Shown piece after piece: positions 1-5,046 of a DNA stretch of 5,046 nucleotides. Positions within the stretch are counted from its first letter, which is position 1. Every line of letters begins with the position of its first letter. Position numbers and translations under genes: made by a program. Below the pieces are notes generated by a model, which was not told where the DNA came from, ran no database searches, and saw nothing but the letters and a program-made list of their open reading frames with translations. Source of the stretch: a virus (lineage: Duplodnaviria > Heunggongvirae > Uroviricota > Caudoviricetes); IMG/VR virus record IMGVR_UViG_2671180636_000004; one strand, given 5' to 3'.

Positions 1-45
1 TGAACATAAAACACTATCAATAAGTTGGAGTCATCACCCCAATTT

Positions 46-59: not shown

Positions 60-508
60 CCACTAAATGATATTTGCGAGAATGCTACCGAGTATTGAAA
101 ACACCACTACANNNNNNNNNNNNNNNNNNNNNNNNNNNNNNNNNNNNNNNNNNNNNNNNNNNNNNNNNNNNNNNNNNNNNNNNNNNNNNNNNNNNNNNNN
201 NNNNNNNNNNNNNNNNNNNNNNNNNNNNNNNNNNNNNNNNNNNNNNNNNNNNNNNNNNNNNNNNNNNNNNNNNNNNNNNNNNNNNNNNNNNNNNNNNNNN
301 NNNNNNNNNNNNNNNNNNNNNNNNNNNNNNNNNNNNNNNNNNNNNNNNNNNNNNNNNNNNNNNNNNNNNNNNNNNNNNNNNNNNNNNNNNNNNNNNNNNN
401 NNNNNNNNNNNNNNNNNNNNNNNNNNNNNNNNNNNNNNNNNNNNNNNNNNNNNNNNNNNNNNNNNNNNNNNNNNNNNNNNNNNNNNNNNNNNNNNNNNNN
501 NNNNNNNN

Positions 509-1594
509 NNNNNNNNNNNNNNNNNNNNNNNNNNNNNNNNNNNNNNNNNNNNNNNNNNNNNNNNNNNNGCTCAGGCAGCTGAAATTTATAATAAAGACAG
601 TAACAAGCTGGATCTGTACGGGAAAGTTAATGCTAAGCACTACTTCTCCTCTAATGATGCAGATGATGGTGATACTACTTATGCCCGTCTTGGCTTCAAA
701 GGTGAAACCCAAATCAACGATCAACTGACTGGTTTCGGTCAGTGGGAATATGAATTCAAAGGCAACCGCGCTGAATCTCAAGGTTCCTCCAAAGATAAAA
801 CCCGTCTTGCCTTCGCTGGCCTGAAATTCGGTGACTACGGCTCCATCGATTACGGCCGTAACTACGGTGTAGCATACGACATCGGTGCGTGGACTGACGT
901 CCTGCCAGAATTCGGTGGTGACACTTGGACTCAAACAGATGTGTTCATGACTGGTCGCACCACTGGTGTTGCAACTTATCGTAACAACGACTTCTTTGGT
1001 CTGGTTGATGGTCTGAACTTTGCTGCTCAGTATCAGGGTAAAAATGACCGCACTGACGTAACTGAAGCTAATGGTGATGGTTTCGGTTTCTCCACTACTT
1101 ATGAGTATGAAGGATTCGGTGTAGGTGCAACCTATGCTAAATCTGACCGCACTAATAATCAGGTTATCTACGGTAACAACAGCCTGAATGCATCTGGTCA
1201 AAATGCTGAAGTATGGGCAGCTGGTCTGAAATATGATGCGAACAACATCTATCTGGCTACCACCTATTCTGAAACCCAGAACATGACTGTTTTTGGTAAT
1301 AACCATATTGCCAACAAAGCACAAAACTTCGAAGTAGTTGCACAATATCAGTTCGACTTCGGTCTGCGTCCGTCCGTTGCTTACCTGCAATCTAAAGGAA
1401 AAGACTTGGGTGCGTGGGGTGATCAGGACCTGGTTGAATATATTGATGTAGGTGCAACCTATTACTTCAACAAAAATATGTCCACTTTTGTTGATTACAA
1501 AATCAACCTGATTGATAAGAGCGATTTCACGAAAGCATCTGGCGTTGCTACCGATGATATCGNNNNNNNNNNNNNNNNNNNNNNNNNNNNNNNN
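509..1594 (+). CDS. nmpC: General diffusion porin of the OmpC/OmpF/PhoE family (prophage NmpC/Lc type); both ends lie in masked sequence, so boundaries are estimates
   Basis: Visible portion is 569-1562. The translation starts ...AQA|[17 protein letters not shown] (signal-peptidase site followed by the typical mature porin N-terminus) and contains the PEFGGD loop-3 motif and alternating beta-strand pattern typical of enterobacterial trimeric porins. Start at about 509 assumes a 23-residue signal peptide; end assumes about 9 more residues plus stop after ...ASGVATDDI. The 74..2083 track ORF is an artefact of reading through N runs. Confidence 0.85.
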
Positions 1595-2555: not shown

Positions 2556-2938
2556 TCATTCCCCATTTCGGTGATGGTCAGTTCCAGCCTCCCACCTTTG
2601 GTAACAGGCATCTTCACAACGCGGTAATCAACGACCTGAGCATCATCCAGCCAGAAACCTGCTTTGGTGAGTGCGTCAAAAGCGGCTTTTTGCAGATTAT
2701 CCAGGTCACGGCGACGGCGATCCGGCATGTGGCACTCAATACGGATTTTCACTGGCATAGCCAGGCCGATATCCAGCATTGCGTTTTTAATGATTCGGGT
2801 GACGTTATCGCGGTATGCCTGCCCTTCTGCGCTGATGTGTGTGCGCCCGCGATTATGGCGGTAATAGCGGTTATTGCTCGGAGGCCAGGGNNNNNNNNNN
2901 NNNNNNNNNNNNNNNNNNNNNATGCTGTAGGTATTCAC
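2552..2938 (-). CDS. rusA: Holliday-junction resolvase RusA (crossover junction endodeoxyribonuclease)
   Basis: Translation MNTYS[masked][30 protein letters not shown]...[63 protein letters not shown] matches RusA as I recall it. Start codon is GTG at 2938-2936, overlapping the ybcO stop (GTGA). Codons 2891-2921 are N-masked. Confidence 0.9.
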
Positions 2939-3225
2939 GCCTTAATAACCCCCTCTTTCAGCCAGATAACCTGCGTTCTCGCCATACCTTCCAGCGCGCA
3001 TTCTTTTGCATACTCAGCATCGACAAAATATGTGCGGCGGTCGATTTCGTCGTGACAGGCAGAACATGCAATGGTGGCAATCAGGTCTGGCGGTTTGATA
3101 CCGGTACCGCACAATCCAGCCAGCCGGATATGTGCCAGTACTGACGTTTCAGGATTGCCATTACATACGCCAGGGATTCTTACCTGGCATTCCCGACCAC
3201 GCGCTGCTTTTCTCAAATCAGCCAT
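2935..3225 (-). CDS. ybcO: YbcO-like prophage protein (DUF1364 family, putative nuclease), 96 aa
   Basis: Translation [99 protein letters not shown] at 3225-3223 is preceded by GGAGG (complement of 3230-3234). The track ORF extends to an upstream in-frame start at 3264, but the SD-supported ATG at 3225 is preferred. Stop TGA at 2937-2935. Confidence 0.85.
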   Translation of the reverse strand: MADLRKAARGRECQVRIPGVCNGNPETSVLAHIRLAGLCGTGIKPPDLIATIACSACHDEIDRRTYFVDAEYAKECALEGMARTQVIWLKEGVIKA

Positions 3226-3388
3226 GATTCCTCCTTGCTGCCAGTCGCAACCATTTTTTATCAACCAGGCTAGCGGTATATCCGAGCAGTGTTGGTATTT
3301 CGGATGGCTTCAGCTCAGGCTTACGCTTACGACGATTTGATACTCTGTAGATGTGCCCGTTCATGACACGAATAAGCGGTGTAGCCAT
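3218..3388 (-). CDS. ninE: NinE-like small protein, 56 aa; not in the ORF track, found by hand translation
   Basis: Minus-strand translation from ATG 3388-3386: MATPLIRVMNGHIYRVSNRRKRKPELKPSEIPTLLGYTASLVDKKWLRLAARRNHG*. AGGAGG SD lies upstream. The start overlaps the ybcN stop (TAATG) and the stop TGA (3220-3218) overlaps the first codons of ybcO. Confidence 0.75.
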   Translation of the reverse strand: MATPLIRVMNGHIYRVSNRRKRKPELKPSEIPTLLGYTASLVDKKWLRLAARRNHG

Positions 3389-3843
3389 TACGCCTCCTGC
3401 TTATCGCGCAGCTGCTGGTATTCACAGCTCTGCAGAATTGTCAGGTGGCAGCCGATATTCATCGCCCAGGCTTCGACTTTGCACAGGAAGATGTACATCT
3501 CGCCGGTTTCCAGCTCTGACGTATGGCGGAGGGATTGGACGGTGGTGACCTCGCCGGACACGACATCTACACGGTCTTTGCTTTCGTAGCCGAGATAGGT
3601 GTGCTTCATCGCGTCTTTGACCCACTCAGGCGTAGCGAAGGTCTTGCCGCGGGCGATGAGATATTCGCTGATCTCCGTGTACCACATGTGGCTGAGCGCG
3701 TTCTGCGACAGGCTGCGCTTCTCGCGCCACGGCTTAACCTGCAGGCGTAAGCATTGCCCGGCATCCAGCAATGGCTGAATCTGCTGGCCGATGGCCGCGA
3801 AGTTACCGCGATGGAGTTTGATGCCGTCTACTGGCAGAGTCAT
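3388..3843 (-). CDS. ybcN: YbcN-like prophage protein (DLP12 nin-region protein, reported DNA base-flipping protein), 151 aa
   Basis: Translation MTLPVDGIKLHRGNFAAIGQQIQPLLDAGQCLRLQVKPWREKRSLSQNALSHMWYTEISEYLIARGKTFATPEWVKDAMKHTYLGYESKDRVDVVSGEVTTVQSLRHTSELETGEMYIFLCKVEAWAMNIGCHLTILQSCEYQQLRDKQEA. ATG at 3843-3841 is preceded by GGGAGG. Stop TAA at 3390-3388. Confidence 0.85.
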   Translation of the reverse strand: MTLPVDGIKLHRGNFAAIGQQIQPLLDAGQCLRLQVKPWREKRSLSQNALSHMWYTEISEYLIARGKTFATPEWVKDAMKHTYLGYESKDRVDVVSGEVTTVQSLRHTSELETGEMYIFLCKVEAWAMNIGCHLTILQSCEYQQLRDKQEA

Positions 3844-3935
3844 ACGGCCTCCCTAACGGAAACCGCAGAATGCAGAAAATCGCAGGTGCATTTCTGCATC
3901 TGTGACAAGGTGATGAGTTCAGATTGTGGTCGCAT
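3840..3935 (-). CDS. Small 31-aa ORF translationally coupled to ybcN (possibly the ylcH equivalent); hypothetical
   Basis: Hand translation of the minus strand: MRPQSELITLSQMQKCTCDFLHSAVSVREAV*. ATG at 3935-3933 is preceded by AAGGGGA. Its stop TGA (3842-3840) overlaps the ybcN ATG (ATGA). Too short for the ORF track; assignment is positional only. Confidence 0.4.
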   Translation of the reverse strand: MRPQSELITLSQMQKCTCDFLHSAVSVREAV

Positions 3936-3954
3936 TTAAGTCCCCTTAAATGCG
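3931..3954. repeat. Inverted repeat (10-bp arms CGCATTTAAG / CTTAAATGCG, 4-nt spacer) covering the SD and start codon of the ylcH-like ORF at the GC-normal/AT-rich junction
   Basis: Read directly from the sequence; arms are exact reverse complements. No U-tract on either strand, so it is not a canonical intrinsic terminator. Confidence 0.5.
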
Positions 3955-4107
3955 CAGAAGTCACCGGAGTTGTTCAGGCTCCGATGAGAGGATTATGGCG
4001 GATTGATTACGATAAATCAAAACTATCTTGAAGCCAAAACAGTGATCTTCGCTTTAAAAACCTTGTATACTTTCACCTAATCACAGCCAGAACTATGGAT
4101 CTAACCA

Positions 4108-4485
4108 ATGACCAACAAAGAAAACAAAGATAAATATATTAACAAGTTCAAGAAAGAGCTTTCAAAATATATACAACCAACTGCTGGAGTGGACATTCAA
4201 TTATTTAACTCTAAGGATGGTGGTGGTGTAATTAAAGCCACTTTGAATAGAAGTGGAAAAAGAAAATCATCTATTGCTGGTAATTTTACTAAATTAGGTG
4301 AGGCAATTACCTCGAGTGGGCAGAGGGTTTTTGGTGGTGATCTATCAAATGTGAATTTTTACGGAACAAATACGATTTTTGATGGAGATACAATATTTTT
4401 AATTAAATCACCTGATTCAGAGGAGTGGTCATCACAAAAAGCTTCCAAAGACGTAGAGGGCATCGTATTTGGAGGGAAAAAATGA
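4108..4485 (+). CDS. Hypothetical protein, 125 aa, lysine-rich N-terminus and Gly-rich motifs (GGGV, FGGD, FGG); no recognisable family; first gene of the AT-rich cassette
   Basis: Uninterrupted 126-codon frame in AT-rich DNA, where stop codons are frequent by chance, so a long open frame is unlikely to be random. The upstream in-frame codon 4102-4104 is TAA, so ATG 4108 is the first possible start. Only a weak SD-like GGAT lies 7 nt upstream. No hydrophobic N-terminus, so probably cytoplasmic. Confidence 0.6.
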   Translation: MTNKENKDKYINKFKKELSKYIQPTAGVDIQLFNSKDGGGVIKATLNRSGKRKSSIAGNFTKLGEAITSSGQRVFGGDLSNVNFYGTNTIFDGDTIFLIKSPDSEEWSSQKASKDVEGIVFGGKK

Positions 4486-4567
4486 TTAACATTACTACTA
4501 AGGATGCACTCAAGTCAGTGGTGAAGTAAGAGATCTAGTAATTCTTCTTGAAACTGATGGAAAAACG

Positions 4568-4909
4568 GTGTCTGATTATTTGCAGCCAATCCCTCCCAAA
4601 AAAGATACACACTGGAGCATGATTTTCATTCCGGTAGCAATTTATATACTACTTAATCTTGTATACATTATTGCTCACCCATTATTTCCTGAAAAATATC
4701 TAAAAACATCAACATCTATATTTCTATTCATTTCCTTCATATTAAGTGCAATAGTAGCATATTTTGTTTTCCATAAGCATAAATCTGCCACTCTATCCAT
4801 ATGCAGCTTAGTGTTCTTAGTGTTAATTGTAGGTGCTAACGTAGGGTTTATCAGTTACAGCGACCTAACACAAAAAGCGACGCAAAAATTAGATAGTTTG
4901 TCTAAATAA
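4568..4909 (+). CDS. Hypothetical small integral membrane protein, 113 aa from GTG 4568 (or about 96 aa from ATG 4619), three predicted transmembrane helices; second gene of the AT-rich cassette
   Basis: Open frame in AT-rich DNA on the same strand, 82 nt downstream of the previous ORF. Three hydrophobic stretches of about 19-20 residues (MIFIPVAIYILLNLVYIIA, SIFLFISFILSAIVAYFVF, LSICSLVFLVLIVGANVGFI) are separated by short charged loops. The first in-frame start is GTG 4568 (weak GGA 6 nt upstream); the alternative ATG 4619 has GGAG only 1 nt upstream, so the true start is uncertain. Confidence 0.6.
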   Translation: MSDYLQPIPPKKDTHWSMIFIPVAIYILLNLVYIIAHPLFPEKYLKTSTSIFLFISFILSAIVAYFVFHKHKSATLSICSLVFLVLIVGANVGFISYSDLTQKATQKLDSLSK

Positions 4910-4916
4910 TTATGTT

Positions 4917-4937
4917 GCCATGCGAAGTATGCATGGC
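4917..4937. repeat. Inverted repeat (7-bp arms GCCATGC / GCATGGC, 7-nt loop) 8 nt downstream of the cassette's second ORF; possible weak terminator or binding site
   Basis: Read directly from the sequence. No adjacent T-tract, so a terminator role is uncertain. Confidence 0.35.
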
Positions 4938-4951
4938 TGCATGTCTGCCTT

Positions 4952-4964: not shown

Positions 4965-5046
4965 GCTAAGACCTATAACCCTAAATATTATTCTTTATTA
5001 TCTTCTTTACCACTTCGGTGATGCTGCCAACTTACTGATTTAGTGT

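What the first reader, a model, noticed from the sequence alone, without database searches (positions are those of the whole stretch)
4108..4485. Lysine- and glycine-rich 125-aa protein of unknown family as first cassette gene
The N-terminus is very basic (MTNKENKDKYINKFKKELSKY) and there are repeated Gly-containing motifs (GGGV, FGGD, FGG), but no catalytic motif I can recognise and no signal peptide. It could be a sensor or partner of the downstream membrane protein. Its codon usage is AT-biased and atypical for the neighbouring prophage genes, suggesting horizontal acquisition.
Basis: partly seen in the sequence, partly recalled or inferred. Interest (0 to 1): 0.5.

Follow-up and report, generated by a model that had tools for sequence, protein, structure and literature searches.

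The report
Unknown prophage gene pair, likely anti-phage
The 125-residue protein is a real, well-conserved gene of a family nobody has described, always paired with a small three-helix membrane protein on mobile DNA and sometimes sitting inside restriction-enzyme operons, so it is a credible but untested candidate for a new anti-virus defence system.

Summary
The ORF at 4108-4485 is real. It is intact in every relative down to about 20% identity, is under strong purifying selection (dN/dS about 0.08-0.11) and is compositionally foreign (GC 34%, against 49-58% in its neighbours).

It matches no Pfam, NCBIfam or PADLOC family and no solved-structure sequence. A confident AlphaFold model (pLDDT 93) has no convincing fold neighbour.

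An exhaustive profile search found about 110 family representatives. A motif-limited genome scan placed relatives in many bacterial phyla.

In essentially every complete locus read, a partner follows it, usually overlapping by 4 bases. The partner has a roughly 40-residue soluble head and three transmembrane helices. In this window, which is Shigella sonnei-like and flanked by IS1 ends, the partner gene carries a fixed 1-base frameshift.

The pair is a self-contained unit with a promoter-like element and a 3' hairpin. It sits antisense between the replication and nin genes of lambdoid prophages, in 48 of 5426 complete E. coli genomes. Elsewhere it occurs on a small mobilisable plasmid, in a conjugative-type element, between the mod and res genes of a type III restriction system, and directly after type I hsdM-hsdS. 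One relative is fused to an HNH nuclease.

Best reading, with confidence 0.5: a two-component phage-exclusion system made of a cytoplasmic sensor and a membrane effector. It works like lambda RexAB but is not homologous to it. No function has been tested.

The parts
4030..4107 (+). Cassette 5' region. It holds a promoter-like AT-rich element (-10-like TATACT at 4066-4071) and a weak Shine-Dalgarno-like GGAT at 4097-4100. The left edge of the transferable unit lies here.
   Evidence: Upstream sequence becomes alignable between otherwise different prophage backgrounds only from about 75-80 nt before the ATG. The TATA(C/G)T / TATAAT block and the GGA(A)TC block are conserved. The consensus scanner did not score it as a promoter. 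Function was not tested.
4108..4485 (+). ORF-A: a 125-aa soluble alpha/beta protein (WP_000182282-type, PHROG 18061). This is the finding itself.
4482..4909 (+). ORF-B: the partner membrane-protein gene (142 aa when intact; WP_000608370-type, PHROG 16940). Here it is a pseudogene: one G is lost next to 4506, the original frame stops at 4527-4529, and the three-helix part survives out of frame as ORF 4568-4909.
   Evidence: The alignment with intact E. coli copies shows the 1-base gap. The PHROG profile matches only from position 30. Hydropathy of the intact protein shows three transmembrane segments at 47-65, 79-97 and 106-124. The truncated 113-aa product is recorded on at least 100 Shigella sonnei contigs, so this is not a sequencing error.
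4912..4942 (+). Conserved hairpin just after the ORF-B stop codon (core GCCATGC-N7-GCATGGC at 4917-4937). It marks the right edge of the transferable unit and is a possible terminator or RNA 3'-end stabiliser.
   Evidence: It is conserved in all enteric variants, with a U-A to U-G change in one of them, and homology between backgrounds ends right after it. Folding gives z = -2.8. There is no U-run, so it is not a canonical intrinsic terminator.

Best explanation
ORF-A and ORF-B form a self-contained two-gene accessory unit (a 'moron') carried by prophages and other mobile elements, and it most likely excludes infecting phages. In the proposed mechanism, A is a cytoplasmic sensor or regulator that docks on the roughly 40-residue cytoplasmic head of B. 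On a phage-derived cue, B, a small protein with three transmembrane helices (predicted N-terminus inside, C-terminus outside), oligomerises and compromises the inner membrane (abortive infection) or blocks genome entry.

Shown here: both genes are real and conserved, pairing is near-obligate, the unit is mobile, it sits antisense to lytic transcription in a prophage cargo site, it occurs inside or next to restriction-modification operons, and the A domain is once fused to a nuclease.

Inferred only: physical A-B contact, A as sensor, B as pore or effector, and any anti-phage phenotype.

In this window the unit is inactive in any case, because B is frameshifted.
For: (1) The genes are real and selected. 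dN/dS is 0.08-0.13 for both, and the frames are intact across the family.

(2) Pairing is near-obligate. A B-type ORF (soluble head with motif MKxGxxEGTxEEI..F..NGL...Y, then three transmembrane helices and an RFK motif) follows A in 24 of the 28 genome and viral loci scanned. The four exceptions are one contig end, one fragmentary A and two damaged B genes. Most overlaps are 4 bases. The same holds in the enteric, plasmid and conjugative-element loci.

(3) It has moron anatomy. There is a GC trough, a conserved promoter-like block and a 3' hairpin that bound the shared DNA. It lies opposite to the early-right operon, between the replication genes and ybcN/DUF1367-nin, in several different lambdoid backgrounds. 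It is present in 48 of 5426 complete E. coli genomes, whereas the flanking DNA is present in 3172.

(4) It is mobile and patchy. It was found on a small Mob plasmid, in a conjugative-type element, in marine prophages, and in 26 species across Nitrospirota, Proteobacteria, Desulfobacterota, Acidobacteriota, Cyanobacteria, Myxococcota, Bacteroidota, Gemmatimonadota and Saganbacteria.

(5) It has a defence context. In a Bacteroides genome it lies between the type III mod and res genes on the same strand. In a proteobacterial metagenome-assembled genome it lies directly after hsdM-hsdS. A DrmD-like helicase lies 2.2 kb away in Nitrospira, and PADLOC candidate PDC-M49A lies 0.9 kb away in a Syntrophaceae genome. 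Further PADLOC hits occur among the neighbours.

(6) The A domain is modular. One representative fuses A to an HNH nuclease that resembles type IV restriction and CBASS-type effector nucleases.

(7) Natural knock-outs exist for either gene alone. B is lost in S. sonnei and in one Enterobacter-type prophage. A is lost through IS1 insertion in CV839-06/L050 and through a frameshift in Es_ST80. This fits an effector that is inert until triggered better than a constitutively toxic toxin/antitoxin pair.
Against: There is no experimental phenotype and no homology to any validated defence protein: PADLOC gave no hit for A or for any B tested, apart from one non-significant hit of the window's B at E 0.17. 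The accessions are absent from the supplementary tables of one large E. coli defence screen.

Only 4 of the 26 species loci from the genome scan were resolved as having known or candidate defence genes within three ORFs. Many instances sit beside housekeeping genes such as ValRS or a ClC channel, so the enrichment is suggestive rather than strong.

The HNH fusion is a single 1.6-kb metagenomic contig type.

Disruption of A by IS1 or a frameshift may be polar on B, so the 'B alone is tolerated' argument is weak.

The cassette is absent from all 50,697 deposited phage genomes and all 72,556 plasmids, so it has so far been seen only in integrated or metagenomic DNA.
Confidence: 0.5

Rival explanations
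1. It is a toxin-antitoxin or addiction module. B is a membrane-damaging toxin, A is its protein antitoxin, and the pair stabilises the mobile element or restriction operon that carries it. It may have no role against phages, or only an incidental one.
For: The two genes are small, overlapping and presumably translationally coupled. The pair occurs on plasmids, conjugative elements, prophages and next to restriction-modification genes. A-only survivors exist, as in S. sonnei.
Against: B-intact, A-disrupted genomes also exist, which a free toxin should not allow, unless polarity silences B. A has no DNA-binding or known antitoxin domain, and B has no known toxin family. B at 125-145 aa with a conserved soluble head is unlike the short type I membrane toxins (from general knowledge).
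Confidence: 0.15
2. It is a lysogenic-conversion or membrane-physiology cargo with no role in phage or mobile-element conflict, for example a small transporter or stress protein (B) with a cytoplasmic regulator (A). One source labels B 'VIT1/CCC1 family predicted Fe2+/Mn2+ transporter'.
For: Prophage cargo sites also carry host-fitness genes; the same prophage carries a porin and iss. Many chromosomal copies sit among housekeeping genes. The JGI label appears.
Against: No VIT1 or other transporter family is detected in B; the best Pfam hit is far below threshold. Three helices and 142 aa is small for a transporter. The extremely patchy cross-phylum distribution, the embedding inside restriction operons and the HNH fusion of A are not expected for a metabolic function.
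Confidence: 0.12
3. It is a phage lytic-cycle accessory, such as a holin/antiholin-like lysis-timing or replication-associated function used by the prophage itself.
For: B has three transmembrane helices like class I holins. The cassette lies inside a prophage next to replication genes.
Against: The cassette is transcribed opposite to the early-right operon and lies far from the lysis cassette, which has its own holin (essD) in the same prophage. It also occurs on plasmids, in conjugative-type elements, within restriction operons and as single chromosomal insertions without any phage genes. The predicted N-in orientation, with a cytoplasmic head and a positive loop after helix 2, differs from lambda S-type holins (inference).
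Confidence: 0.05

Closest known systems
Lambda RexA/RexB exclusion system
   Same: It is a prophage-borne two-gene unit made of one soluble cytoplasmic protein and one small polytopic inner-membrane protein (RexB 144 aa, B 142 aa). It sits where it can be expressed from the lysogen independently of lytic genes. The proposed logic is the same: a sensor activates a membrane effector.
   Different: There is no detectable homology: hhalign probability is 0.04% for A against RexA and 0.5% for B against RexB. A is 125 aa, against 279 aa for RexA. B has three predicted helices plus a conserved soluble head, whereas RexB has four helices. The gene order relative to the repressor and the genomic site differ. 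The phenotype here is untested.
PrrC/RloC-type abortive-infection genes embedded in restriction-modification operons
   Same: The A-B pair is found between the type III mod and res genes and directly after type I hsdM-hsdS. This recalls prrC, which sits inside the EcoprrI type Ic operon (from general knowledge).
   Different: PrrC and RloC are single large anticodon nucleases with ATPase domains. A and B have neither domain. Most A-B copies are not next to restriction genes.
Phage 'morons' (Hendrix/Juhala sense)
   Same: It is an independent unit with its own promoter-like element and 3' hairpin, a lower GC than its surroundings, inserted between conserved genes, and present or absent among otherwise similar prophages.
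   Different: 'Moron' describes anatomy, not function. This unit also travels outside phages.
Small transmembrane effectors of CBASS, Pycsar and retron systems
   Same: B is a short multi-helix membrane protein encoded next to a soluble partner. One weak PADLOC hit of B is to a '4TM effector' model (E 0.17).
   Different: That hit is not significant. No cyclase, reverse transcriptase or nucleotide-sensing domain is present.

Membership tests
PHROG 18061 (A) and PHROG 16940 (B): prophage protein families of unknown function | A full-length match to the family profile | tested here: met
   A matches at E 9e-85 over 1-125 of 125. The surviving part of B matches at E 2e-74 over profile positions 30-142 of 142.
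Lambda RexAB | The soluble component is homologous to RexA | tested here: not met
   hhalign of the 74-sequence A profile against lambda RexA gives probability 0.04%.
Lambda RexAB | The membrane component is homologous to RexB (four transmembrane helices) | tested here: not met
   hhalign of the 27-sequence B profile against RexB gives probability 0.5%. B has three hydropathy peaks.
Lambda RexAB | Exclusion of superinfecting phage with membrane depolarisation | not testable with these tools
   This needs infection assays.
Known or candidate defence systems (PADLOC-DB v2.0) | A significant match of any component to a system HMM | tested here: not met
   A gave 0 families. The window's B gave only E 0.17. 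Distant B proteins gave 0 families.
Defence gene by genomic association (defence-island criterion) | Family members are enriched next to known defence genes | tested here: inconclusive
   The pair is embedded in a type III restriction operon (L072) and a type I operon (L063), and lies near a DrmD-like helicase (L051) and PDC-M49A (L055). Further PADLOC hits among 140 neighbouring ORFs were not resolved per locus. Other loci are flanked by housekeeping genes. No background control was computed.
Type II toxin-antitoxin modules | An antitoxin with a DNA-binding fold and a toxin of a known superfamily | tested here: not met
   No Pfam, NCBIfam or PADLOC domains were found in A or B.
Type II toxin-antitoxin modules | The toxin is not tolerated without the antitoxin (asymmetric decay) | tested here: inconclusive
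   Both A-only genomes (S. sonnei, L037, L045) and B-only genomes (CV839-06/L050, Es_ST80) exist. Polarity of the lesions in A on B expression is unknown.
Phage moron | An autonomous unit of deviant composition, variably present between conserved phage genes | tested here: met
   GC is 34% against 49-58% in the neighbours. The cassette is in 48 of 5426 genomes, while the flanks are in 3172. The shared DNA is bounded by a promoter-like block and a hairpin. Promoter and terminator activity were not tested.
Class I holins | Located in the lysis cassette next to the endolysin | tested here: not met
   The lysis cassette (essD-rrrD-rzpD) lies 4 kb away on the other strand in the same prophage.
VIT1/CCC1 transporters (a source label for B) | A match to the VIT1 family profile | tested here: not met
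   There is no VIT1 hit at E <= 1 in Pfam. The best hit is 7TMR-DISM_7TM at 22 bits, against a cut-off of 29.

The most novel reading that the evidence does not exclude
A and B constitute a previously undescribed, phylum-spanning anti-phage system. Its roughly 125-residue sensor domain has a fold with no solved relative, and it can be wired either to a three-helix membrane effector or, rarely, to an HNH nuclease. The system is recurrently recruited as a back-up module inside type I and type III restriction-modification operons and into prophage cargo sites.
Probability: 0.4. Interest if true: 0.7.

Novelty: new variant of a known kind. Interest (0 to 1): 0.55.

Why it matters
If the pair is a defence system, it adds a compact module of about 0.9 kb with a new sensor fold to the known bacterial immune repertoire. 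It is present in uropathogenic and probiotic E. coli (strains 536, F11, A0 34/86, M-17), in Klebsiella and Enterobacter, and in many environmental phyla. It would also give a second, independent example of the Rex-type logic of a soluble sensor plus a small membrane effector. Because it sits inside restriction operons, it would offer a tractable case of layered immunity. Even if it is not defensive, it defines two conserved, co-inherited protein families that currently have no annotation in Pfam, NCBIfam or PADLOC.

Tried and rejected
- Family libraries: Pfam, NCBIfam and PADLOC gave nothing for A. PHROGs gave only unknown-function families.
- The profile search against solved-structure sequences gave only chance-level hits, at E 0.022 and 0.14.
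- The first AlphaFold run, with 9 close sequences, was poor (pLDDT 58). The 74-sequence alignment fixed this (pLDDT 93).
- tblastn against deposited phages and plasmids found no match.
- Literature searches by accession, PHROG id and descriptive terms found nothing. The accessions are absent from the DefensePredictor supplements. The Brenes & Laub 2025 prophage-defence paper is not held.
- Locus searches with the wide alignments failed for lack of a conserved block, so subfamily alignments were used instead.
- Nucleic-acid binding by a basic A was considered and set aside, because basic charge is not conserved.
- The VIT1 label for B was rejected.
- P0130 (1251 aa, repeat protein) was judged a spurious low-complexity hit.

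Full report
**Setting.** The window is a decayed lambdoid (DLP12-like) prophage. It carries an OmpC/NmpC-type porin on the + strand. On the - strand it carries quuD, ylcG, rusA (2552-2938), ybcO (2935-3225), ninE (3218-3388) and ybcN/NinB (3388-3843). After the - strand genes, on the + strand, come ORF-A (4108-4485) and the remains of ORF-B. Next are the last 30 bases of replication gene P on the - strand, where homology to other genomes stops at 5017. The window begins and ends with IS1 termini (see the incidental observations).

**Is the ORF real?** Yes.
- It is 125 codons long in DNA of 34% GC, where stop codons are frequent. The chance of such an open frame is about 8e-5.
- It is annotated as WP_000182282.1 in complete E. 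coli genomes.
- It matches PHROG 18061 end to end at E 9e-85.
- Enteric variants at 68-92% identity keep the frame. Synonymous sites are saturated while dN/dS is 0.08-0.11.
- Its GC (34%, GC3 26%) contrasts with ybcN (57%, GC3 76%), ybcO (52%) and ninE (49%). The GC trough coincides with the cassette.

**The partner gene and its state in this window.**
- In other genomes a 142-aa ORF (WP_000608370.1, PHROG 16940) starts at the ATGA overlap with A's stop codon.
- The window lacks one G next to 4506, so that frame ends after 15 codons. The 113-codon ORF at 4568-4909 is the displaced remainder.
- The 113-aa product is recorded on at least 100 Shigella sonnei contigs, so the lesion is a fixed lineage mutation rather than a sequencing error.
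- Intact B has a hydrophilic head of about 45 residues and three hydropathy peaks at 47-65, 79-97 and 106-124.
- B is also under purifying selection, with dN/dS 0.08-0.13.

**How wide is the family?**
- The word-indexed search saw only 13 enteric clusters.
- The exhaustive profile search found 111 representatives at 50% clustering, nearly all 120-135 aa.
- Their alignment shows one invariant residue, K100, and near-invariant Y10, G39, F84, G86, T87, W107 and D115. The consensus reads Y.N.FR..L...LKP..G ... F.GTN...E.NRI.LIK ... W....A..DV.
- None of the 74 members tested hits Pfam in a meaningful way. The profile finds no solved-structure sequence above chance.
- A motif-limited scan of one genome per species found 26 loci. 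They span Nitrospira, Nitrosomonas, Neptuniibacter, Syntrophaceae and other Desulfobacterota, Acidobacteriota, Synechococcus, Myxococcales, Saganbacteria, Gemmatimonadota, and Bacteroides, Flavobacterium and Mariniflexile. This very patchy spread points to horizontal transfer.

**Structure.**
- With the 74-sequence alignment, AlphaFold gives pLDDT 93 and pTM 0.87. The order of elements is helix 4-19, strands 27-35, 40-47 and 52-60, helix 63-70, a long conserved loop at 71-86, strands 87-92 and 95-100, and helices 104-107 and 109-124.
- The best viral-model hit is an uncharacterised phage protein.
- The fold therefore offers no functional lead.

**Pairing.**
- Every enteric prophage locus read has A followed by B. 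Fifteen of the 18 IMG/VR loci have both genes intact.
- The same holds at 20-45% identity:
  - a small Mob plasmid (A 125 aa plus B 143 aa, next to a replicase and MobC/relaxase);
  - short metagenomic contigs;
  - a marine chromosome after smc-zipA-ligA;
  - marine prophages;
  - a conjugative-type element in a Bacteroidota-like genome, where A is 220 aa and B 188 aa, with a caspase-like Peptidase_C14 gene upstream;
  - a contig where A is 243 aa and B 132 aa.
- Of the 28 scanned genome and viral loci, 24 show a B-type ORF, mostly overlapping A by 4 bases. The four exceptions are a contig end, a fragmentary A and two damaged B genes.
- The B alignment shows a conserved head motif (MKxGxxEGTxEEI..F..NGL...Y), three helices and an RFK motif after helix 2. 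By the positive-inside rule this suggests an N-in, C-out orientation; that step is inference.

**The unit is a moron.** DNA shared between different prophage backgrounds starts about 75-80 nt upstream of A. That stretch holds a conserved TATA(C/G)T or TATAAT block and a GGA(A)TC block. The shared DNA ends just after a conserved hairpin downstream of B, which carries a wobble-compatible substitution in one variant. The unit is antisense to the early-right operon. Its flanks differ between backgrounds: P or other small genes on one side, and ybcN or DUF1367 on the other. It is present in 48 of 5426 complete E. coli genomes, always chromosomal, whereas the flanking DNA occurs in 3172 genomes. No deposited phage genome or plasmid record carries it.

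**Context bearing on function.**
- In a Bacteroides genome the order on one strand is type III mod, a 35-nt gap, A, B (8-nt overlap), a 94-nt gap, then type III res.
- In a proteobacterial metagenome-assembled genome the order is hsdM, hsdS, A, B. HsdM and HsdS were confirmed against solved EcoKI and StySJI subunits.
- A DrmD-like SNF2 helicase lies 2.2 kb from the pair in Nitrospira. The PADLOC candidate PDC-M49A lies 0.9 kb away in a Syntrophaceae genome.
- Among 140 neighbouring ORFs there are further PADLOC hits (mad2, mad3, type IIG, PDC-S22, PDC-S45) that I could not assign to loci.
- Other copies are flanked by ValRS, a ClC channel or biosynthetic genes.
- One representative, P0104 (447 aa), fuses the A domain to an HNH nuclease (Pfam E 1e-12). 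That nuclease resembles type IV restriction and CBASS-type effector endonucleases in PADLOC.
- In one enteric prophage the same cargo site also holds a colicin-like/immunity pair and a DndB-like gene with an HNH gene.

**Natural knock-outs.**
- B is inactivated in the S. sonnei lineage (this window and L037) and truncated at 73 aa in L045.
- A is interrupted by IS1 at codon 49 in CV839-06 and L050, and frameshifted in Es_ST80, with B intact in CV839-06 and Es_ST80 (in L050 the contig ends within the IS1, so the state of B is unknown).
- Either gene can therefore be lost alone. This argues against a tight toxin/antitoxin dependency, with the caveat that lesions in A may be polar on B.

**Interpretation.** The best-supported reading is a mobile two-component exclusion system. 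A would be the cytoplasmic sensor or regulator and B the membrane effector. This is functionally analogous to lambda RexAB but unrelated to it (hhalign probabilities 0.04% and 0.5%). The placement inside restriction operons recalls PrrC-type back-up modules (from general knowledge). I give this reading 0.5. The rivals are a toxin-antitoxin or addiction module (0.15), a membrane-physiology cargo (0.12) and a lytic-cycle accessory (0.05); the remainder is unassigned. Nothing here tests function. In this particular window the system is in any case broken.

**Novelty and score.** The families are undescribed: no Pfam, NCBIfam or PADLOC entry and no paper found. The kind of element, a prophage cargo made of a soluble protein plus a small membrane protein, is familiar. 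I rate it a new variant of a known kind, with interest 0.55. It is a solid, cheaply testable candidate among many such candidates, lifted by its breadth across phyla, the restriction-operon embedding and a confident fold without neighbours.

Noticed in passing
window 1-38 and 5018-5046: Both ends of the window are IS1 termini. Positions 1-38 match the IS1 right end, with the same string seen as a reverse complement at the IS1 insertion in L050. Positions 5018-5046 (ggtgatgctgccaacttactgatttagtgt) match the IS1 left inverted repeat as I recall it. The right-hand IS1 cuts replication gene P, of which only about 30 nt remain at 4988-5017. The prophage segment is therefore bracketed by IS1 copies and is defective.
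   Followed up: partly
window 4482-4909; protein P0153: The truncated 113-aa ORF-B product is recorded on at least 100 Shigella sonnei contigs, so the window very probably comes from S. sonnei. The out-of-frame remainder still encodes all three transmembrane helices behind a GTG start. Whether it is expressed is unknown.
   Followed up: partly
L027 (E. coli CV839-06) 609-1466; L050; L028 (Es_ST80) 3009-3254: There are independent inactivations of ORF-A. IS1 is inserted at codon 49 in two records, and a frameshift gives an 81-aa product in a third. ORF-B is intact in L027 and L028; in L050 the contig ends within the IS1, so ORF-B could not be read.
   Followed up: yes
L009 3665-5348 and 7118-8971: In one enteric prophage the same cargo site also carries a pore-forming-colicin-like gene with a colicin-immunity-like gene. 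On the other side it carries a DndB-like gene (PADLOC DndB, E 7.5e-36) next to a small PtuB-like HNH gene.
   Followed up: partly
L030 3990-4760: A caspase-like Peptidase_C14 gene lies 240 nt upstream of the long-form A/B pair, on the same strand, inside a conjugative-type element (TrwC relaxase, TraG-like coupling protein). It may be a third component in that lineage.
   Followed up: no
L031 258-1895 and L032 1-918: A 545-aa protein with a GHKL/Bergerat-ATPase-like motif (…SNSGAKE…DNGCGM…, read by eye; no Pfam hit on record) ends 30 nt before the long-form A gene in two contigs. It is another possible lineage-specific third component.
   Followed up: no
window 3840-3938 (- strand); L001 7938-8036: RefSeq annotates a 32-aa ORF overlapping the start of ybcN. 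The region at 3900-4020 is shared with many lambdoid phages (HK639, phi80 'IR4', and phage 82 with an annotated promoter and regulator site). It marks the conserved phage backbone next to the insertion point.
   Followed up: no
protein P0013 (ENA metagenome, 127 aa): Its C-terminal 50 residues are identical to ORF-A, while its N-terminal part carries pentapeptide-repeat Pfam hits. It is probably a frameshifted or chimeric gene call rather than a true fusion.
   Followed up: no
window 112-568, 1563-2063, 2891-2921: Three masked runs of N interrupt the porin gene region, the quuD-proximal region and rusA. Nothing can be said about those stretches.
   Followed up: no
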